A DNA stretch of 45,946 nucleotides from an uncultured Micavibrio sp. (GTDB lineage: Bacteria; Patescibacteriota; Minisyncoccia; Moranbacterales; GCA-2747515): the NCBI GenBank assembly GCA_964534895.1, contig CAZHQB010000002.1, positions 1 through 45,946 on the forward strand. Direction: 5' to 3'. A program made the translations under genes and the position numbers. Shown here piece by piece: positions 8,447-26,122 of this stretch; the stretch's first letter is position 1, and each line of letters begins with the position of its first letter. The notes under the pieces are model-generated. The model saw nothing but the letters and a program-made list of their open reading frames with translations. It was not told the DNA's origin and did no database searches.

Positions 8447-8570
8447 GCTTCCCCTCCCTAAGGGAGAGGATTGAGGTAATGGGTCATTTATGATTATTTT
8501 GATGTGTAAAACATCTTATACTAAACCCTCATCCGCCCTATCGGACACCTTCTCCCATAGGGAGAAGAAG
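8447..8570. repeat. Pair of GC-rich hairpin motifs (YCTCCC-WTA-GGGAGR) flanking a ~75-nt AT-rich spacer
   Basis: Left copy: cttcccctccctaagggagagga at 8448-8470. Right copy: ccttctcccatagggagaagaag at 8548-8570. Both are GC-rich against an AT-rich background. Confidence 0.5.
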
Positions 8571-9158
8571 TTAAATTAGTGATTTTATTTTTTCAAAAAT
8601 TTCTTGTTTTGGTTTGTTCCCATCTATTTTATGTAATTTGAAAATTTTGTTGTATTCATTGAATAATTTATTTTTATCTTCTAAATATTGTAATCCTTGT
8701 GAGGGTTTATCATCTCTTTTCATAATTTCTTTTGGTTTAATTGATAGGAAAAATTTATAATTAGGAGAGGTGATGTGCGTGAAAAAAGATGGAATGTATC
8801 GCTTTTTGGATAAGTATGCGATATTTACTATCATATCATAAAAATACCTATCAGTAAGTATGTAATTATACCCATTCCTATCTAATTTTTTGATAAGAGA
8901 TTTGAATCTAAAAATATCAATGAGTAGTGCAACTTTGCGAAGCCAAATTTTGGACCATGATGCTTTTGTCACATCTTTTTGCTTTGTGTAGTGACAGGTT
9001 TGAAACCTGTCACTACGGTTTGAGATATTTGCAACGGAGAACTGGACAGCATGAAAATAGAATACCTTATTTTTGTTATTTTCCAAGTATTCTTGTAATA
9101 ATTGTATTTGAGTTGATTTACCAGAACCATCAAGTCCTGAAATTGAGATTATTTGCAT
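8571..9158 (-). CDS. Thymidylate kinase-like P-loop kinase
   Basis: P-loop GLDGSGKST close to the N-terminus and a DRY motif (LTDRYFYD). ATG at 9158 (MQIISISG) is preferred over the listed TTG at 9167. The CDS contains an in-frame palindromic repeat. Confidence 0.65.
   Translation of the reverse strand: MQIISISGLDGSGKSTQIQLLQEYLENNKNKVFYFHAVQFSVANISNRSDRFQTCHYTKQKDVTKASWSKIWLRKVALLIDIFRFKSLIKKLDRNGYNYILTDRYFYDMIVNIAYLSKKRYIPSFFTHITSPNYKFFLSIKPKEIMKRDDKPSQGLQYLEDKNKLFNEYNKIFKLHKIDGNKPKQEIFEKIKSLI
8970..9016. repeat. REP-like palindrome, family A, copy A1 (inside a CDS)
   Basis: The 29-nt palindrome gtagtgacaggtttgaaacctgtcactac is at 8988-9016. The 5' flank cacatctttttgctttgt is shared with copy A2. 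Confidence 0.85.
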
Positions 9159-9160
9159 GA

Positions 9161-9189
9161 TTGACAATTGTTTGATTATGTGCTAATAT
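9161..9189 (+). promoter_or_regulatory. Sigma70-like promoter
   Basis: TTGACA (9161-9166), 17-nt spacer, TAATAT (9184-9189), upstream of the 9281 gene. Confidence 0.45.
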
Positions 9190-10107: not shown

Positions 10108-10152
10108 CACATCTTTGCTTTATGTAGCGACAGGTTTGAAACTTGTCGCTAC
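10108..10152. repeat. REP-like palindrome, family A, copy A2
   Basis: gtagcgacaggtttgaaacttgtcgctac at 10124-10152, with the conserved 5' flank cacatctttgctttat. It ends 3 nt from the rtcB stop codon. Confidence 0.85.
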
Positions 10153-11673: not shown

Positions 11674-11702
11674 GTAGTGACAGGTTTTAAGCTTGTCCCT
11701 AC
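11674..11702. repeat. REP-like palindrome, family A, copy A3 (degenerate)
   Basis: gtagtgacaggttttaagcttgtccctac, lying between the RAYT stop and the rtcB start. Confidence 0.75.
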
Positions 11703-11710
11703 TGTTAAAA

Positions 11711-12196
11711 TTAAATGTTATATTTATCTTTGTTCCACTGTCTAGGGTTAATCATAATATATTCTCGGATTTTATTCAATGATTCATCCTTTCTAATTAT
11801 ATGGTCATAAAATGAGCGTTGCCATTGAAATTTGTTTGTTGGGTTAGTATCGTTAATTTTTCTGGATGAAAATGTTTTAAATCCTCGTATTATTTCAGAT
11901 AATCCATGTGTTGTAGGGACAGGTTTCAAACCTGTCCCTACGTTGTCATTTATTTCAATGATAACGTGAACATGGTTTGGCATAATTATGTATTCATCTA
12001 TATTTATATTATTATAGTGATTTGGTAAATTGGTTAAAACATCTTGTGCAATATTGCCATATTCATTTAATATCATCTTTTCATCAATTATTTTTCCGAA
12101 AAAATGTCTTTTATTTTTTGTGCAAATTGTTATGAAATACATGCCGTTTTGTGAATAATCGTAATTTGATAGTCTGGTTTTCTTGCGATGTTTCAT
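11711..12196 (-). CDS. REP-associated tyrosine transposase (RAYT; IS200/IS605-like Y1 HUH family)
   Basis: N-terminus RLSNYDYSQNGMYFITICTKNKRHFFG, HUH motif MPNHVHVII, Tyr motif QRSFYDHIIR. The start is taken at MKHRKK (12196). The listed longer ORF reads through the upstream palindrome. Confidence 0.8.
   Translation of the reverse strand: MKHRKKTRLSNYDYSQNGMYFITICTKNKRHFFGKIIDEKMILNEYGNIAQDVLTNLPNHYNNINIDEYIIMPNHVHVIIEINDNVGTGLKPVPTTHGLSEIIRGFKTFSSRKINDTNPTNKFQWQRSFYDHIIRKDESLNKIREYIMINPRQWNKDKYNI
11913..11941. repeat. REP-like palindrome, family A, copy A4 (inside the RAYT CDS)
   Basis: gtagggacaggtttcaaacctgtccctac, identical 29/29 to A5. It encodes VGTGLKPVPT. Confidence 0.85.
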
Positions 12197-12208
12197 ATAA
12201 ATAATATT

Positions 12209-12237
12209 GTAGGGACAGGTTTCAAACCTGTCCCTAC
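12209..12237. repeat. REP-like palindrome, family A, copy A5
   Basis: gtagggacaggtttcaaacctgtccctac, lying between the GT4 stop (12252) and the RAYT start (12196). Confidence 0.85.
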
Positions 12238-12251
12238 GATTGAAATGATTA

Positions 12252-13424
12252 CTAATTGTAAATATTTTGATATTGACTTGCTGTGTTTTTGATATTAAAT
12301 GTTTGGTGGGCAAAATCGTATGCATTTTCGCCTAATGCTTTTCTTTTTTGTTCATTTTTTGCTAAGTCTAGTATTGCACTTGCTAATTCTTCTGAATTAT
12401 TTTGTTTTACTATTACATTTATTTTTTCATTGCTAAATTCTTTGAATAATTCTAAATCAGATGCAATTACTGGTTTTTTGCATGCGTAAGGTTCTATCAT
12501 AGCTAAGGGAACATCAAATTTGCCAGCCATATTTGTGACGGGGAATATCACAGTGTCAGACATATTATAAACAGCATTAACATCTGGGAATGTGTCTGTA
12601 AAAGCAACTTTGTCAATGTGTCCTGCATCTGTAATTTTTTTGATGACCTCTTGTTTTTTCTTTGCATCGGCTTTGTTCTTTATGCGACACGCACATAAAT
12701 ATTTTATGTGAGAATTGTCTGGATTTTGCCAGAGTTGGATAAATGTGTCTACTATTAAATCAGTAGCACCAAGTCGCACAAATTCACCTGGATAGGTGAC
12801 TACAAAATTTTTATCTGTTATATTCCATTTTTTCATCAATTTTGCGTCTTTTGAAGCTGGTACAAATTTTCTAAAATTAAATCCTGGATAAATTTGTGCT
12901 ACATTATTAAATCCTAAATTCTCTAATTTAGTTTTTGCCCATTTGGAGTAGGTGACTATTGTGTCGCCAAACATAAATTTTTTGATTTCAGTATCAGAAT
13001 ATATATCTTTACGAAGAGTAGCAACAGTTTGAATTGATTTTGTGTTGGAATTTTTGATGCATAGATTAATGGCAAGGCTATTGAGTCGTGCTGGTGTAAA
13101 CATATAATGAATAATATCAAATTTTTTTCTACTTATTATTTGAAATATAAATGAATAAATTTTTTGTAGAAGTGAAAAATGATTATCTGTATAAATTTTT
13201 TGTTGAGTGATGTGGCTGGGAATATTGTCAATATATTTATCAACTAAAATTGTAATATCTTGATTTGTGGTATTGCACGCCAAATCATAGGCAAAATTTT
13301 TACTAGCTTCATCCCAAGGAGGAGAAAGTGGGCGAGTGACGAATAATATCTTTTTTTGTGGTGCAGAGACTAAGTCACTAGGTCTAGTTACATGGTCTCT
13401 GTGTAGATTTGTGTTACTTGACAT
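12252..13424 (-). CDS. Glycosyltransferase family 4 (GT-B)
   Basis: 390 aa. KKILFVTRP near the N-terminus and a GT4-like C-terminal half. The N-terminal 22 aa overlap a family C repeat. Confidence 0.8.
   Translation of the reverse strand: MSSNTNLHRDHVTRPSDLVSAPQKKILFVTRPLSPPWDEASKNFAYDLACNTTNQDITILVDKYIDNIPSHITQQKIYTDNHFSLLQKIYSFIFQIISRKKFDIIHYMFTPARLNSLAINLCIKNSNTKSIQTVATLRKDIYSDTEIKKFMFGDTIVTYSKWAKTKLENLGFNNVAQIYPGFNFRKFVPASKDAKLMKKWNITDKNFVVTYPGEFVRLGATDLIVDTFIQLWQNPDNSHIKYLCACRIKNKADAKKKQEVIKKITDAGHIDKVAFTDTFPDVNAVYNMSDTVIFPVTNMAGKFDVPLAMIEPYACKKPVIASDLELFKEFSNEKINVIVKQNNSEELASAILDLAKNEQKRKALGENAYDFAHQTFNIKNTASQYQNIYN
13365..13400. repeat. Palindromic repeat, family C, copy C1 (degenerate, inside a CDS)
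   Basis: agagactaagtcactaggtctagttacatggtctct. It shares the flank gtgcagagac...catggtctct with C2 and has 6 internal mismatches. Confidence 0.65.
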
Positions 13425-14307: not shown

Positions 14308-14425
14308 TTGAATATGAGCAGTATGCAAATTTGTGTGCTACTCTTTTTTTGTCTTTTCTCTATAACCTTAGTATTATCACCAATATTTACTACTATTTTT
14401 ATATTTTGATTATTAAATGTGGTGC

Positions 14426-14461
14426 AGAGACCAGGTCGCTAAGTCTAGCGACATGGTCTCT
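14426..14461. repeat. Palindromic repeat, family C, copy C2
   Basis: agagaccaggtcgctaagtctagcgacatggtctct, between convergent genes. It is followed by TTTTT and probably also acts as a terminator. Confidence 0.8.
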
Positions 14462-14868: not shown

Positions 14869-14897
14869 GTAGTGATAGGTTTGAAACCTGTCACTAC
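14869..14897. repeat. REP-like palindrome, family A, copy A6
   Basis: gtagtgataggtttgaaacctgtcactac. It ends 3 nt from the stop of the 14901 gene. Confidence 0.85.
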
Positions 14898-14900
14898 ATT

Positions 14901-16889
14901 TTATTTGCGGACAAATACACTTAGTTCATTGTTTTGATATATTCTGTAAAAAATATCATTATTTAGGAATTGTCCAGCGTCTTCTGTTGTGTTTACTATT
15001 ACAGCGTGTACATTTAAGTTTTCAAAGCACTTAGTAGCAAAGTCGCTTTTTGGATTGCTTATCATTTCTCTAGTGCAAGTTTCTTTATCTGGATGAGTTT
15101 CGTACCTTTTGAAATAACTGCGGGAGAGTGGAAAGGAATAATCATAAGCATAAAAAACTTTGAGCCATGTGTCAGATACTATGTAATTGTGGTCTTTTAT
15201 AATCCAAAACTTGTTGGTTAGGATTTGTTTTTTGAATACTTTACTTGTGTAGTCACCTGTGTGAAAAGTCTGAAGTGCTTGATTTGTTTTTGGTTTGTCG
15301 TTCATACTTGTAGCGTTGTCACGTACTCCACTTACAAAGGTAAATGTGATAACTGCAAACAAAAAAGTTGTTATCAAAAACTGGGGAAGTGCTAGTTTTT
15401 TGTTTTTGGAAATTATGTGAATAGTCCAAATAATTGCAAGTCCAGATAAAATTGCTAGGGGGAATGCTGCGTAAGTTGCAATTCTGGTGGAGATGATATT
15501 GACTTTTAAATATTGTGGAACTGTTGACATAAGTAGTATCGCCCAACCCCATCCTAGCAAAAAAGCTGTTGCATAGGTATTGGTAGGTATGTTTTTTTTG
15601 CCAAGATGTGCAAATTTACCAAATCGCTTGAGTAGTGCAAATCCAGATAACATTAACAGTCCAATAACACCAAAAACAAAACGTGCACTTCCGAGCATAT
15701 ACATAAGTTGTTCAAATGGCACACCTGTGCGAGTAGATTTGGATGGCGTTCCGATGGATGAGGTAACTGCATCGCGGTTTAAGTACGAAGGTGGTGCGAT
15801 GAAAAAAAGTAGTCCAATAGACAAAATCAGTAGAGGTATGACATATGGATTTTTAAGTAAAGTAAAAAGTTTTTTGTAGCCATCCCAGCCGTCTTTTTGC
15901 AATACAATAAAACCAAGCAAACTAAATATGAAAGTATAACCAAATATAAGAGTACTAAGATGGTGTGTGTAGGCTAATCCTGTTAGTAGTAAAATTGCAC
16001 CAACTAATAATGTAGATTTTTTTTCTTTGAATGCACGATATACAAAATATATAACAGCAGGAATAAGTAAATTACCTATAACATTTCCAACAACTCCACC
16101 GCTGACAAATTTTGTGCCAGCACCACTGATAGTCCAAAGAGGTCCGATAAAAAGAAGTGTGAGAATTGCTACGTGTGTGCCATAGCGATAGCGTTCAAAT
16201 AACCTGCGTGAAAGTATAAATAACATCAAAACACTAAAGATGTTTATAACAAAAAGTACAAGGGAAGGAAATGTGCTTACCACAGATTGCCCAGTAAAAG
16301 TTTTTACTACTGCAAAAATAATATGTTCACCTTCTATGAAATCTGCGATGTCTTGTGGTTGGCTAAAGGTGGGAGTGTTATCATTTGTTTCCAATTCAAT
16401 TTTTTTGTAATCTGGGAGCTTTTGGTCTGTGGTAATTTTTTGAACCCAAAACATATGATGTCCTAGATCAGTTGCAGTAGGGAAGATTGTATTTATGAGA
16501 AATAGTCCTTTTGCAACAATAGTAAAAATAATTAACAATGCAATTAAGACGGTTTGAATTTTGGAAAAAGTAAAGATTGTCGTAGTGGACGGACATGTCC
16601 GTCCACTACATTTGTGTTTAATAAAAATAGCAAAAACAAAAAATTGCAAAGTTACAACTGATATTGTAATGAGTAAGCTCTGCTGAGTAAGTAAGACGTT
16701 AAATAAGTCTAATAAGATAACGCAAAGAGTGATAATTGCAAAACTTATAGGCACGCTCAAGACAAATCTCTCAAAAGTGCTAAAAAAATCTTTGTGAAAA
16801 ACCGCACGCAAAAAGGCGTATCCTGGTAAAAATAAAAGCGCAAAAGTGACACTCAAGAAAAATAACTGTTGTGATAAAAATTCGTTCAT
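14901..16889 (-). CDS. Large polytopic membrane protein, probable GT-C-type glycosyltransferase (function tentative)
   Basis: 662 aa with more than 12 TM helices and a C-terminal soluble domain. Its context is an envelope glycosylation locus. It contains an in-frame family B palindrome. Confidence 0.55.
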   Translation of the reverse strand: MNEFLSQQLFFLSVTFALLFLPGYAFLRAVFHKDFFSTFERFVLSVPISFAIITLCVILLDLFNVLLTQQSLLITISVVTLQFFVFAIFIKHKCSGRTCPSTTTIFTFSKIQTVLIALLIIFTIVAKGLFLINTIFPTATDLGHHMFWVQKITTDQKLPDYKKIELETNDNTPTFSQPQDIADFIEGEHIIFAVVKTFTGQSVVSTFPSLVLFVINIFSVLMLFILSRRLFERYRYGTHVAILTLLFIGPLWTISGAGTKFVSGGVVGNVIGNLLIPAVIYFVYRAFKEKKSTLLVGAILLLTGLAYTHHLSTLIFGYTFIFSLLGFIVLQKDGWDGYKKLFTLLKNPYVIPLLILSIGLLFFIAPPSYLNRDAVTSSIGTPSKSTRTGVPFEQLMYMLGSARFVFGVIGLLMLSGFALLKRFGKFAHLGKKNIPTNTYATAFLLGWGWAILLMSTVPQYLKVNIISTRIATYAAFPLAILSGLAIIWTIHIISKNKKLALPQFLITTFLFAVITFTFVSGVRDNATSMNDKPKTNQALQTFHTGDYTSKVFKKQILTNKFWIIKDHNYIVSDTWLKVFYAYDYSFPLSRSYFKRYETHPDKETCTREMISNPKSDFATKCFENLNVHAVIVNTTEDAGQFLNNDIFYRIYQNNELSVFVRK
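16582..16609. repeat. REP-like palindrome, family B, copy B1 (inside a CDS)
   Basis: gtagtggacggacatgtccgtccactac, translated as CSGRTCPSTTT. Confidence 0.85.
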
Positions 16890-18215: not shown

Positions 18216-18243
18216 GTAGTGGACGGACATGTCCGTCCACTAC
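18216..18243. repeat. REP-like palindrome, family B, copy B2
   Basis: gtagtggacggacatgtccgtccactac, identical to B1 and lying between convergent genes. Confidence 0.85.
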
Positions 18244-22957: not shown

Positions 22958-23046
22958 GATGCTATAGCAAAAAGCAGTCCAACCTTCGGATGCTTGAATG
23001 TTTGACTTTTGGGATGTAGAGATTATTTTGTGTATCGAATATTATA

Positions 23047-23080
23047 GCAACCAGGTCGCTAAGTCTAGCGACCTGGTTGC
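23047..23080. repeat. Palindromic repeat, family C, copy C3 (perfect)
   Basis: gcaaccaggtcgctaagtctagcgacctggttgc: a 15-bp stem with a 4-nt loop, followed by tgtttt. Confidence 0.8.
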
Positions 23081-23094
23081 TGTTTTAAGATAAA

Positions 23095-24483: not shown

Positions 24484-24580
24484 CTTTTCCTCCTATATTA
24501 ATTGTTTTTGTGATATACTAATGTTAAAGAGCCGTTAAATAACTGATAGTTAAATATAGGATAATTTTATATTTTTGTCA

Positions 24581-26122
24581 ATGAATGAGTTAACAAAACA
24601 CAAAAGAATATTGACGGTTTTGAATGTGGTTGTGGTTACGGGTTTAATTGTTTTGCAACACATTGGTTTTTTTGATAGTGGTGAGTGGTTTGGGTTTGTG
24701 CTTTTTTGTGCAGGGCTTTTTGTTTTGGCACTGTACCGGCCTTGGGTTGTATTTGTTTTACTTGTGGGAGTTGTTCCTATTGAGATTATAAATATAGCTC
24801 CTGATATACTGCCTATAGATCTGCGGCCATATCAATTACTTACTACACTTTTGGTCTTGGCTGTTATTGTTCGTAGGATTTTTGGTGGTGAAAAATTTAT
24901 TTTTAAAGCAGGTATATTTGATATTTTGGTTAGTGTTTTGATAGTTTTGGGATTTGTTAGTGCTTTTTTGTCTCCTTTTGACAATAGTGCTATCAAACAA
25001 GCGTTAGTAGTTTTTTCTTTTGGGCTTTTGTATTTTGTAGTGCGGTTTTTTGTACGCAAAAAAGATGATGTTTTGGCATTGTTTCCAATTATGGTGTCCA
25101 GTGGCGTGGTGATAGGAATTTATGCGATTGTGCAAAATATTTTATTTACTAGTGGTGGAGTACATGCAGAAGTGATGCCGGGACGGCCAAATGCTACTTT
25201 TGCTGAACCTGATTGGCTGGGGATATATTTAGTGTTTGTTTGTGCTGTGATTTTGGCGTATTTGTATTATAGTGTACGACACAAACATTTATGGAAATTT
25301 TTTGATATTGCTCTTTTTGGTTCGGCCACTGTAGTGGTGACAGCACTTATTATTACAGTTGCTCGCAGTGCTTGGGTTGGATTTGTGGCTGTGGCTTTTG
25401 CTTATCTTTTGAGTGTGTTTTTGCAAAAGAAATATAAATTGTTTGGAATGCATAGTTTTTGGATTGTTAGTGTGGGAGTGTTTAGTTTGATTATTGTGAG
25501 TGTGTTTAGTTTGACTAATTTTGAATTATTACATAGAGCTAGTAGCACTAGTTCAGGTTTGCAAGAAATTACAATCGCCTGTGATTGTAGTGGACAGACA
25601 TGTCTGTCCACTACAACTGTGATTGAAAATGTAGAAGAGTTAACTCAATATAATTGCAAACACATAAATTTAGAAGATGTAGAAAGTGAAAAAACAAAAG
25701 GCTTAAGCGTGCTAAAAATTTATCGCAAAGATCCAAATGTAGTAGTGCGTACAGATGTGTACAACAAGACAATTACACTCATAAAACAAAGTCCAGTTTT
25801 GGGGTATGGTTGGGGCAGTAGTGGACAGATGTTAGGCAATGATGAAAACGGCACACCTCTCAATGCAAGTAATATATTTTTGGAGACTGCACTTTCAGTT
25901 GGGTTGCTTGGAGTAGGTGTTTTGATTGCAATTTTTATACTTGGTGGCTTTTATGCTGTCAGAAGTATCCAAAAACTAAAAAACACAAAACAAAAAAGCG
26001 TAGCAATCTTTGTGCTTGTGGGACTGGTAGCAATAATTGTACCAAATCTATTTAATGCAGGATTGTTCTTGGGATTGGTATGGTTGTTTATGGGAATGCT
26101 TGACGGTTTGCGTAAAGTGTGA
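24581..26122 (+). CDS. O-antigen ligase/polymerase family membrane protein (Wzy_C-like)
   Basis: Polytopic protein. The motif TVARSAWVGFVAVAF is typical of the O-antigen ligase domain. A large loop contains a family B palindrome. ATG at 24581 is preferred over the TTG at 24575. Confidence 0.7.
   Translation: MNELTKHKRILTVLNVVVVTGLIVLQHIGFFDSGEWFGFVLFCAGLFVLALYRPWVVFVLLVGVVPIEIINIAPDILPIDLRPYQLLTTLLVLAVIVRRIFGGEKFIFKAGIFDILVSVLIVLGFVSAFLSPFDNSAIKQALVVFSFGLLYFVVRFFVRKKDDVLALFPIMVSSGVVIGIYAIVQNILFTSGGVHAEVMPGRPNATFAEPDWLGIYLVFVCAVILAYLYYSVRHKHLWKFFDIALFGSATVVVTALIITVARSAWVGFVAVAFAYLLSVFLQKKYKLFGMHSFWIVSVGVFSLIIVSVFSLTNFELLHRASSTSSGLQEITIACDCSGQTCLSTTTVIENVEELTQYNCKHINLEDVESEKTKGLSVLKIYRKDPNVVVRTDVYNKTITLIKQSPVLGYGWGSSGQMLGNDENGTPLNASNIFLETALSVGLLGVGVLIAIFILGGFYAVRSIQKLKNTKQKSVAIFVLVGLVAIIVPNLFNAGLFLGLVWLFMGMLDGLRKV
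25587..25614. repeat. REP-like palindrome, family B, copy B3 (inside a CDS)
   Basis: gtagtggacagacatgtctgtccactac, translated as CSGQTCLSTTT. It shows a compensatory G-C to A-T change relative to B1 and B2. Confidence 0.85.

What the first reader, a model, noticed from the sequence alone, without database searches (positions are those of the whole stretch)
8970..9016. Family A palindrome and its conserved flank translated in frame inside a thymidylate-kinase-like gene
- **The insert.** The P-loop kinase CDS (8571-9158, minus strand) reads straight through copy A1. The segment SNRSDRFQTCHYTKQKDV is encoded by the palindrome plus the 18-nt flank cacatctttttgctttgt.
- **Shared flank.** The same flank precedes intergenic copy A2 (10108-10123). 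The unit therefore looks like a mobile ~45-nt element, not native coding sequence.
- **Location in the protein.** It sits between the P-loop region and the DRY motif without breaking the frame.
- **Precedent.** This recalls Rickettsia palindromic elements, which are known to insert in frame into protein genes. Classical REPs are extragenic.
Basis: partly seen in the sequence, partly recalled or inferred. Interest (0 to 1): 0.62.

Follow-up and report, generated by a model that had tools for sequence, protein, structure and literature searches.

The report
In-frame REP hairpin in kinase loop
A 29-base mobile-type DNA hairpin (a REP element, with its transposase-like gene 2.6 kb away) is read through in frame as a floppy surface loop of a thymidylate-kinase-like protein in a tiny Patescibacteria genome; this behaviour is already described in other bacteria, so it is a clear but fairly ordinary case.

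Summary
A perfect 29-nt palindrome, GTAGTGACAGGTTTGAAACCTGTCACTAC (8988-9016), lies in frame in an intact 195-aa Tmk-family gene and encodes R48-Y57.

It is a "double-foot" GTAG...CTAC REP. The genome holds about 19 copies, six of them within 6 kb. Its cognate RAYT (TnpAREP subclass 2.4, 11711-12196) is flanked by this REP and also carries it in frame.

The REP peptide is the only low-confidence stretch of an otherwise confident AlphaFold model. It sits in a loop that is hypervariable among orthologues.

There is no net 15-aa insertion. The REP replaces about 11 native codons.

Sister species carry other REP families (B, C, and a long inverted repeat) at the same slot. One relative carries a decayed family A copy and lacks the neighbouring RAYT.

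The "conserved flank" is not part of the element. Half of it is the native K-D-V codons. Only copy A2 shares it, which is beyond chance, so A2 was probably copied from the gene together with some flank.

In-frame GTAG REPs (Di Nocera 2013) and REPs inside subclass 2.4 RAYT genes (Quentin 2018) are already published. I class this as a new member of a known kind. The added points are the Patescibacteria host and the turnover of REP families at one slot.

The parts
8988..9016 (.). REP copy A1: a perfect 29-nt double-foot palindrome (GTAG...CTAC). With the preceding C it is read on the minus strand as R48-S-D-R-F-Q-T-C-H-Y57 of the Tmk-family protein.
   Evidence: identical to three other genome copies. 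RNA hairpin of 13 bp, region MFE -23.6 kcal/mol, z = -5.2; pLDDT below 50 at residues 47-60.
8970..8987 (-). The 'flank', encoding T-K-Q-K-D-V. It is coding sequence of the gene, not part of the repeat. K-D-V is conserved in REP-free orthologues. ACAAAGCA is lineage-specific junction sequence.
   Evidence: orthologue protein and DNA alignment; only A2 shares it.
8571..9158 (-). Intact 195-aa Tmk-family P-loop kinase gene, a divergent paralogue. A more canonical Tmk lies elsewhere in the genome.
   Evidence: PF02223, 38.5 bits. TIGR00041, 42 bits, below the cut-off of 83; pLDDT 88.9, and the top folds are dTMP kinases; second Tmk at C1:14269-14901, 77.9 bits; all 53 invariant family columns are kept.
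10108..10152 (.). REP copy A2 (10124-10152) plus 16 nt resembling the A1 flank (10108-10123). It is extragenic, 3 nt after the rtcB stop between convergent genes. It carries a compensated stem change (T-A to C-G).
   Evidence: sister genomes have ordinary non-REP terminator hairpins at this place.
11711..12196 (-). RAYT / TnpAREP gene (161 aa), subclass 2.4 type, with motifs NHVH, WQ and YIMINP.
   Evidence: Y1_Tnp, 46.5 bits. REP_Tyr_transpos, 72.5 bits against a cut-off of 80. (homologues). (published subclass features).
11913..11941 (.). Family A REP in frame inside the RAYT gene. It encodes V-G-T-G-L-K-P-V-P-T just after the HuH motif.
12209..12237 (.). Family A REP at the 5' flank of the RAYT gene, identical to the internal copy.
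11674..11702 (.). Family A REP at the 3' flank of the RAYT gene, 8 nt after its stop codon.
14869..14897 (.). Family A REP, extragenic, directly downstream of the DUF6541 membrane-protein gene.

Best explanation
**What it is**
- The palindrome at 8988-9016 is a copy of a GTAG-tagged, double-foot REP element. Its family belongs to the RAYT (TnpAREP subclass 2.4) gene encoded 2.6 kb away in the same window.
- It sits in frame in a hypervariable loop of a Tmk-family kinase paralogue. That loop is predicted to be disordered.
- There the REP is translated as ten passenger residues (RSDRFQTCHY). These stand in place of about eleven native loop codons.

**Why it is tolerated**
- Two of the three reading frames on each strand of the palindrome are free of stop codons.
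- The loop accepts almost any sequence.
- The REP plus one base comes to exactly 30 nt.

**The loop as a REP slot**
- Sister species carry other REP families at the same codon position.
- One relative that lacks the neighbouring RAYT carries a decayed family A copy there.

**Inferred steps**
- The RAYT acts on single-stranded hairpins, probably preferentially near its own gene. I infer that it placed, and keeps renewing, the perfect copy in this genome.
- The extragenic copy A2 is a secondary copy of A1 that took 16-18 nt of the gene's flank with it.

**Shown versus inferred**
- Shown: repeat-family membership, the RAYT association, the intact reading frame, loop variability and disorder, and other families at the same slot.
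- Inferred: RAYT-mediated insertion or renewal, translation of the peptide, neutrality of the peptide, and the A1-to-A2 direction of copying.
For: **Repeat family**
- About 19 copies in the genome, and none in shuffles.
- Six copies lie within 5.9 kb around the RAYT in a 1.08-Mb genome.
- Position 5 of the stem covaries with its partner: T-A, C-G and G-C.

**RAYT**
- Y1_Tnp scores 46.5 bits and REP_Tyr_transpos 72.5 bits.
- The REP-RAYT(REP)-REP layout is present here, and the same layout occurs in G002:C12.

**Gene is intact and in the Tmk family**
-.

**Loop**
- pLDDT is below 50 only at residues 47-60.
- The orthologue alignment shows the segment between FSxAN and KDVTKASW to be variable in length and sequence.

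**Other REP families at the same slot**
- DNA of G003, G001, G005, G002 and G006 shows them.
- These families are dispersed repeats in those genomes, with zero control hits.
- REP-free genus members have the loop ILN-AGKKRSSDGKT-KDV.

**Relative with a decayed copy**
- L028 has a decayed family A REP at the slot (21 of 27 positions; alignment score 14 against a null maximum of 12).
- It has no RAYT between the GT4 and RtcB genes.

**Further in-frame REPs in real genes of this genome**
- UvrC, DprA, a DUF6541 protein, a Wzy_C-like protein, the RAYT, and a large open frame predicted to be secreted.

**Junctions**
- Both are confirmed in three metagenome runs.

**Published precedent**
- PMC3733652 and PMC6006769.
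Against: - No allele of the same species without the REP (an empty site) was found. The closest orthologue is only 73% identical, so the insertion event itself is not observed.
- There is no RNA or protein evidence that the gene is expressed or that the hairpin is translated.
- The RAYT scores just under NCBIfam's equivalog cut-off (72.5 against 80), and its activity is untested.
- Family copy number is low for a classical REP family (12-19 against more than 100).
- Whether one ancestral insertion was converted in place, or the families inserted independently, cannot be decided. The protein tree is poorly resolved at its base.
- The A1-to-A2 copying direction rests on one 18-nt similarity.
Confidence: 0.8

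Rival explanations
1. One reading: a ~45-nt Rickettsia-RPE-like mobile unit, made of the palindrome plus the 18-nt flank, inserted as a whole into native coding sequence and added 15-16 residues.
For: A1 and A2 share the flank beyond chance. The element is translated in frame.
Against: Of 19 family copies, 17 have unrelated flanks. K-D-V in the flank is conserved in REP-free orthologues. Loop length is 17 codons against 15, so there is no 15-residue gain. The element has a RAYT and GTAG feet, so it is a REP and not an RPE.
Confidence: 0.04
2. The REP in the loop is selected and not a passenger. It could act as an mRNA or DNA hairpin that tunes expression of the kinase gene, or as a docking site that lets the RAYT act on this locus. 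Alternatively the encoded Cys/His-containing peptide could contribute to the protein's function.
For: The copy is a perfect consensus palindrome, whereas the relative without the neighbouring RAYT has a decayed one. REPs of several families persist at exactly this slot across species. The hairpin is strong: the MFE of the 86-nt region folded is -23.6 kcal/mol, z = -5.2.
Against: The peptide differs completely between families (RSDRFQTCHY, CSGRACPSTT, RRDAINRVST), so no peptide function is conserved. Most orthologues, including half the genus, have no palindrome. The same REPs sit in many unrelated genes. A perfect sequence is equally explained by recent insertion or gene conversion.
Confidence: 0.1
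3. The gene is a decaying pseudogene or a dispensable paralogue that the REP has inactivated. The open frame survives only because the palindrome lacks stop codons in this frame.
For: A second, more canonical Tmk exists in the genome, so this copy need not be essential. There is no expression evidence.
Against: The full-length frame is open, and all 53 invariant and 15 nearly invariant family columns are kept. The fold is confident outside the loop (pLDDT 88.9). The family is conserved in 36 of 41 related genomes. Orthologues with REPs in the loop are likewise intact.
Confidence: 0.05
4. The palindrome is native sequence that matches the repeat family by coincidence or convergence.
For: None beyond the fact that the frame is open.
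Against: It is identical at 29 of 29 positions to three other genome copies, and shuffles give none. REP-free orthologues have unrelated sequence at the slot.
Confidence: 0.01

Closest known systems
Intragenic GTAG-tagged REPs (Di Nocera, De Gregorio and Rocco 2013, BMC Genomics 14:522; PMC3733652)
   Same: Both are 20-40-nt palindromes with a GTAG tag, dispersed and mostly downstream of genes. A fraction is inserted in frame in known genes, often DNA-repair genes (UvrC and DprA here), and is presumed to lie in loops or linkers.
   Different: The host here is a reduced Patescibacteria (Moranbacteria-type) genome with only about 20 copies. About a third of the copies are intragenic. Different REP families occupy one orthologous slot in sister species.
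TnpAREP (RAYT) subclass 2.4 = Bertels group 4, with 'double foot' REPs and REPs inserted in the tnpAREP gene itself (Quentin, Siguier, Chandler and Fichant 2018, BMC Genomics 19:475; PMC6006769)
   Same: The motifs NH[IFV]H and WQ are present, and the Y motif is of the YIxNNP type. The REPs have GT[AG]G...C[TC]AC feet. [quoted passage not shown]
   Different: As quoted, the paper names Cyanobacteria, Bacteroidetes and 'various phyla'; I did not see Patescibacteria named. The Y motif here is YIMINP. The score is 72.5 bits, under NCBIfam's cut-off of 80.
Rickettsia palindromic elements (RPE)
   Same: Both are palindromic repeats found in frame inside intact protein genes, typically in surface loops.
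   Different: From my own knowledge, RPE-1 is about 100-150 bp and has no known transposase. The short intragenic R. conorii repeats are CGTC-tagged. The element here is 29 nt, GTAG-tagged, and has a RAYT.
REPIN/RAYT systems of Pseudomonas and REP/BIME of E. coli
   Same: Both involve a hairpin repeat family tied to a single-copy, vertically inherited Y1 HuH transposase that is flanked by its own REPs.
   Different: Those families have hundreds of copies, are asymmetric (one foot), are commonly arranged as inverted doublets, and are essentially extragenic. Here the copies are single, symmetric and frequently intragenic.

Membership tests
GTAG-tagged REP superfamily | Short (20-40 nt) palindrome able to form a stem-loop | tested here: met
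   29 nt with 14-nt arms. The predicted hairpin has 13 bp, z = -5.2.
GTAG-tagged REP superfamily | Conserved GTAG tetranucleotide at the end of the element | tested here: met
   GTAG at the 5' end and CTAC at the 3' end ('double foot') in all good copies.
GTAG-tagged REP superfamily | Multi-copy and dispersed in the genome | tested here: met
   12 copies at up to 2 mismatches and 19 at up to 6, spread over 11 contigs. Reversed-pattern controls and shuffles give none. The copy number is low compared with classical families.
GTAG-tagged REP superfamily | Association with a RAYT/TnpAREP gene flanked by the same REP | tested here: met
   The RAYT at 11711-12196 has family A REPs at 12209, 11913 (internal) and 11674.
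TnpAREP subclass 2.4 (for the associated transposase) | Key motifs: HuH = NH[IFV]H, then WQ, then Y motif YIxNNP | tested here: met
   NHVH, FQWQ and YIMINP; the last has I where the consensus has N.
TnpAREP subclass 2.4 (for the associated transposase) | Variable insertion between beta3 and alphaC that holds REP sequence in frame | tested here: met
   VGTGLKPVPT is encoded by the REP directly after NHVHVIIEINDN.
TnpAREP subclass 2.4 (for the associated transposase) | Score above the curated cut-off of the REP-associated tyrosine transposase model | tested here: inconclusive
   NF047646 scores 72.5 bits against a cut-off of 80. Pfam Y1_Tnp scores 46.5 bits against a cut-off of 23.
TnpAREP subclass 2.4 (for the associated transposase) | Binds and cleaves its cognate REP hairpin | not testable with these tools
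   This needs a biochemical assay.
Rickettsia palindromic elements (RPE) | Element of roughly 100-150 bp (RPE-1 type) or CGTC-tagged short repeat (RPE-4/6), without an associated transposase | tested here: not met
   The element is 29 nt, GTAG-tagged, and a RAYT is present. It behaves like an RPE but is not a member.
Rickettsia palindromic elements (RPE) | Inserted in frame in intact protein genes, in surface-exposed segments | tested here: met
   The gene is intact and the loop has pLDDT below 50. Exposure is predicted, not measured.
Thymidylate kinase (dTMP kinase) family, for the host gene | Pfam PF02223 above the gathering score, with P-loop and DRY motif | tested here: met
   38.5 bits against a cut-off of 27; GLDGSGKST and TDRYFYD are present.
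Thymidylate kinase (dTMP kinase) family, for the host gene | Equivalog-level match to bacterial dTMP kinase (TIGR00041) | tested here: not met
   42 bits against a cut-off of 83.25. A better Tmk lies at C1:14269-14901. The gene is a paralogue of unknown substrate.

The most novel reading that the evidence does not exclude
The loop of this kinase may be a fixed REP 'slot' at which the RAYT swaps hairpin cores between the conserved GTAG and CTAC feet. This would be a cassette exchange. Families A, B and C would then replace one another in place across species, always keeping the frame. The copy would stay a perfect palindrome only while a cognate RAYT is present, and would decay into ordinary coding sequence once the RAYT is lost, as in L028. 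That would be in-vivo evidence for REP-to-REP replacement and RAYT-dependent maintenance. It would also show a route by which REPs become permanent protein sequence.
Probability: 0.25. Interest if true: 0.6.

Novelty: new member of a known kind. Interest (0 to 1): 0.35.

Why it matters
- It adds a clean, well-anchored example of REPs being read through as protein loops outside Rickettsia and Proteobacteria, in a reduced Patescibacteria genome. About a third of the REP copies in this genome are intragenic.
- The comparison across the genus is the useful part. One orthologous loop carries family A, B, C or a long inverted repeat, depending on the species. A relative without the adjacent RAYT holds a decayed copy.
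- That is a natural series for asking two questions. How do RAYTs place, replace and maintain REPs? How does repeat DNA become ordinary coding sequence?
- For annotation, peptides such as SDRFQTCHY, VVTGLKPVTT and CSGRTCPSTT in Patescibacteria proteins should be recognised as REP-encoded and not mistaken for functional motifs.

Tried and rejected
- **REP-less allele or population variant.** Logan contigs of three runs show only the REP-bearing form. Two pattern scans of the JGI metagenome contigs returned nothing.
- **Expression evidence.** No RNA run holds the gene.
- **Flank as part of the element.** Rejected, because only A2 shares it. A plain local-alignment comparison of flanks was not decisive (13 against a next-best 12). 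The boundary-anchored edit-distance test was decisive.
- **Genome copy at C12:17899.** I suspected it lay in an rRNA or another RNA gene because the spanning frame looked non-coding. Rfam and ARAGORN found nothing, and the copy is simply intergenic between two genes.
- **Sole, essential Tmk.** Rejected, because a better Tmk is present.
- **Monophyly of REP-bearing orthologues.** The tree with the loop masked shows clustering, but its base is unresolved. One origin versus several cannot be decided.
- **Exact empty site for A2.** Sister genomes were too diverged to define one. Only the replacement of an ordinary terminator hairpin could be seen.

Full report
**1. Observation**

- The + strand reads cacatctttttgctttgt (8970-8987) followed by GTAGTGACAGGTTTGAAACCTGTCACTAC (8988-9016).
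- The only long frame through it is the minus-strand ORF 8571-9167. Its ATG at 9158 gives a 195-aa protein that begins MQIISISGLDGSGKST, like all its homologues.
- On the coding strand the palindrome plus one preceding C makes exactly ten codons: CGT AGT GAC AGG TTT CAA ACC TGT CAC TAC = R48-S-D-R-F-Q-T-C-H-Y57. The codons ACA AAG CAA AAA GAT GTG (T-K-Q-K-D-V) follow.
- The palindrome recurs in the window at 10124, 11674, 11913, 12209 and 14869, with none in shuffles.
- The 1.08-Mb draft genome (31% G+C) holds 19 copies at up to 6 mismatches. Three of them are identical to this one.
- Logan contigs from three public runs reproduce both junctions and show no REP-less joint. Two of the runs are labelled hydrothermal-vent metagenomes.

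**2. What the palindrome is**

- Every good copy starts with GTAG and ends with CTAC. Position 5 of the stem varies together with its partner: T-A in A1, C-G in A2, G-C beside the transposase. The pairing itself is therefore maintained.
- A Y1 HuH transposase gene lies 2.6 kb away at 11711-12196 on the minus strand. It scores Pfam Y1_Tnp 46.5 bits and NCBIfam REP-associated tyrosine transposase 72.5 bits against a cut-off of 80.
- A family A copy lies 12 nt before its start (12209-12237). Another lies 8 nt after its stop (11674-11702). A third lies in frame inside it (11913-11941), encoding VGTGLKPVPT right after NHVHVIIE.
- The motifs NHVH, WQ and YIMINP, the two-footed REP and the REP inside the gene are the published hallmarks of TnpAREP subclass 2.4, which equals RAYT group 4 (Quentin et al. 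2018, PMC6006769).
- Across homologues from several phyla the internal peptide reads VG(N/T/D/E)G(L/F)KP(F/V/S)PT. The pairings N-F, T-V, D-S and E-S go together, which is what a conserved DNA palindrome predicts.
- Six of the 19 family copies lie within 5.9 kb around this gene. About 0.1 would be expected for a random spread.
- The element is therefore a classical GTAG REP with its RAYT. It is not an RPE.

**3. The host gene**

- The protein matches Pfam Thymidylate_kin (38.5 bits). It falls well under the dTMP-kinase equivalog cut-off, at 42 against 83.
- The AlphaFold model is confident (mean pLDDT 88.9, pTM 0.83). Its best structural matches are dTMP kinases at about 19% identity.
- The genome also holds a more canonical Tmk at C1:14269-14901, scoring 77.9 bits. 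The REP-bearing gene is thus a divergent paralogue of unknown substrate.
- This paralogue is conserved in 36 of 41 related genomes.
- All 53 invariant alignment columns are kept, so nothing suggests a pseudogene.

**4. Where the REP sits**

- The only stretch with pLDDT below 50 is residues 47-60, which is the REP peptide plus TKQ.
- In the alignment of 26 orthologues, the segment between the invariant FSxAN and KDVTKASW varies in both length and sequence.
- REP-free members of the same genus (G004, G010, G011) read AN-ILN-AGKKRSSDGKT-(K/Y)DV, which is 15 codons. The window reads AN-ISN-RSDRFQTCHY-TKQK-DV, which is 17 codons.
- The REP therefore stands in place of about 11 native codons. It does not add 15-16 residues.

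**5. The same slot in relatives**

DNA of the orthologous genes shows other palindromes at the slot. In most genomes they begin three codons after AN, with (C/T)GTAG.

| Genome | What occupies the slot |
|---|---|
| G003 | a family C-like copy (GTAGAGACACATCGCGATGCGTCTCTAT) plus family B (GTAGTGGACGGGCATGCCCGTCCACTAC) |
| G001 | a split family C plus family B |
| G005 | family C plus a C variant |
| G002 | family B with mutated feet |
| G006 | a roughly 90-nt inverted repeat |

- Families B and C are dispersed repeats in those genomes, with 3-24 and 3-13 copies and zero control hits.
- Family A is present in G002, G005 and G006 but not at their slot.
- Among 120 database homologues, nearly all of those at least 59% identical carry REP-type or decayed REP-type loop peptides. 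More distant ones mostly have an ordinary 14-20-residue loop.
- A tree built with the loop masked clusters the REP-bearing proteins. It needs several family switches inside well-supported clades, but its base is unresolved.
- One apparently REP-free close homologue, P0007 (locus L028), has a decayed family A copy at the slot. Its loop is GTAATGACAAGTCGC-AACCTATCACT, matching at 21 of 27 positions, with alignment score 14 against a maximum of 12 in 5000 shuffles. Families B and C score only 4-6 against it.
- In L028 the GT4 stop and the rtcB region are 8 nt apart. In the window the 564-nt REP-RAYT-REP unit lies at that place.

**6. The shared flank**

- Only A2 shares the A1 flank.
- The similarity is 3 edits in 18 when anchored at the REP boundary. 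That occurs in 5 of 200,000 random positions, giving 0.001-0.02 expected by chance.
- The flank contains native kinase codons, so the simplest reading is that A2 was copied from A1 with 16-18 nt of one flank. The 45-nt stretch is not the mobile unit.
- A2 lies 3 nt after the rtcB stop. Sister genomes have ordinary terminator hairpins at that place.

**7. Generality in this genome**

About 20 strict GTAG palindromes were found. These lie in frame in verified genes:
- the Tmk-like gene;
- the RAYT gene;
- UvrC, inside the RNase H endonuclease domain;
- DprA, after the DprA domain;
- the DUF6541 membrane protein (14904-16889);
- the Wzy_C-like protein (24575-26119).

A seventh copy lies in frame in a 934-aa open frame on contig C30, predicted to be secreted, which was not run against Pfam. 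Two of three frames on each strand of these palindromes lack stop codons, which makes read-through easy.

**8. Mechanism**

- Shown: family membership, the RAYT association and its local clustering, the intact frame, the disordered and hypervariable loop, occupancy of the slot by several families, and a decayed copy where the RAYT is absent.
- Inferred from what is established for TnpAREP and the IS200/IS605 enzymes, which cleave and rejoin single-stranded hairpins next to a guide tetranucleotide:
  - the RAYT inserted or renewed the copy, probably preferentially near its own gene;
  - selection kept only events that preserve the frame in a permissive loop;
  - the peptide is a neutral passenger.
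- Whether the slot reflects one old insertion followed by in-place exchange of cores, or repeated insertions, remains open.

**9. Comparison with what is known, and novelty**

- In-frame GTAG and CGTC REPs in known genes were reported by Di Nocera et al. 2013. Many were in repair genes, and a position in loops or linkers was proposed.
- Double-foot REPs and REPs inside subclass 2.4 tnpAREP genes were reported by Quentin et al. 2018.
- Earlier notes of this scan describe the same pattern in many Patescibacteria genomes. I used them only as leads and re-derived each point here.
- This is therefore a new member of a known kind.
- Three points are specific to this case: the host, the turnover of REP families at one orthologous slot, and the perfect-versus-decayed contrast that tracks the presence of the neighbouring RAYT.
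- Interest is moderate to low, at 0.35.

Noticed in passing
window 11674-12237: REP-RAYT-REP unit, with the same REP also in frame inside the RAYT gene (VGTGLKPVPT after the HuH motif). Relative L028 has an 8-nt spacer at this place, which serves as an empty site for the 564-nt unit. The layout itself is published for TnpAREP subclass 2.4.
   Followed up: yes
window 16582-16609 and 25587-25614: Family B palindromes (GTAGTGGAC(G/A)GACATGTC(C/T)GTCCACTAC) lie in frame in the DUF6541 membrane protein (KCSGRTCPSTT) and in the Wzy_C-like O-antigen-ligase-type protein (CSGQTCLSTT). An extragenic copy lies at 18216-18243.
   Followed up: partly
genome contigs C12:7171-7199, C32:11070-11097, C30:9913-9941: In-frame REPs in UvrC (inside the RNase H endonuclease domain), in DprA (in the linker after the DprA domain), and in a 934-aa open frame predicted to be secreted. 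The last also contains two further REP-like peptides (MTGTRPVTT).
   Followed up: partly
window 13357-13400, 14418-14461, 23038-23083: A third palindrome family of longer type, with no GTAG feet (AGAGACCAGGTCGCTAAGTCTAGCGACATGGTCTCT). One copy lies at the 5' end of the GT4 glycosyltransferase ORF.
   Followed up: no
window 8450-8470 and 8536-8562: Two CCCTCTCCC...GGGAGAGGG-type palindromes lie in the spacer between the flippase gene and the Tmk-like gene. Similar palindromes are found on at least six other contigs.
   Followed up: no
alignment of Tmk-like homologues, e.g. P0060, P0066, P0077, P0069, P0074: More distant orthologues carry other unusual loop contents at the same slot. Examples are SCHSER...ESRNL-type peptides, which look like another translated palindrome, and a KKYCLICK..G.C Cys-rich motif. 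The loop seems to accept insertions widely.
   Followed up: no
genome contig C1:14269-14901: A second, more canonical thymidylate kinase gene (PF02223, 77.9 bits). The REP-bearing gene is thus a divergent paralogue. It lies next to polysaccharide-synthesis genes (a flippase and glycosyltransferases).
   Followed up: partly
L002 703-730 and L004 2810-2837: A REP variant (GTAGAGACGCATTGCAATGCGTCT(C/T)TAC) lies about 1.1 kb from the Tmk-like gene in both G003 and G001. This may be an orthologous extragenic REP retained in two species.
   Followed up: no
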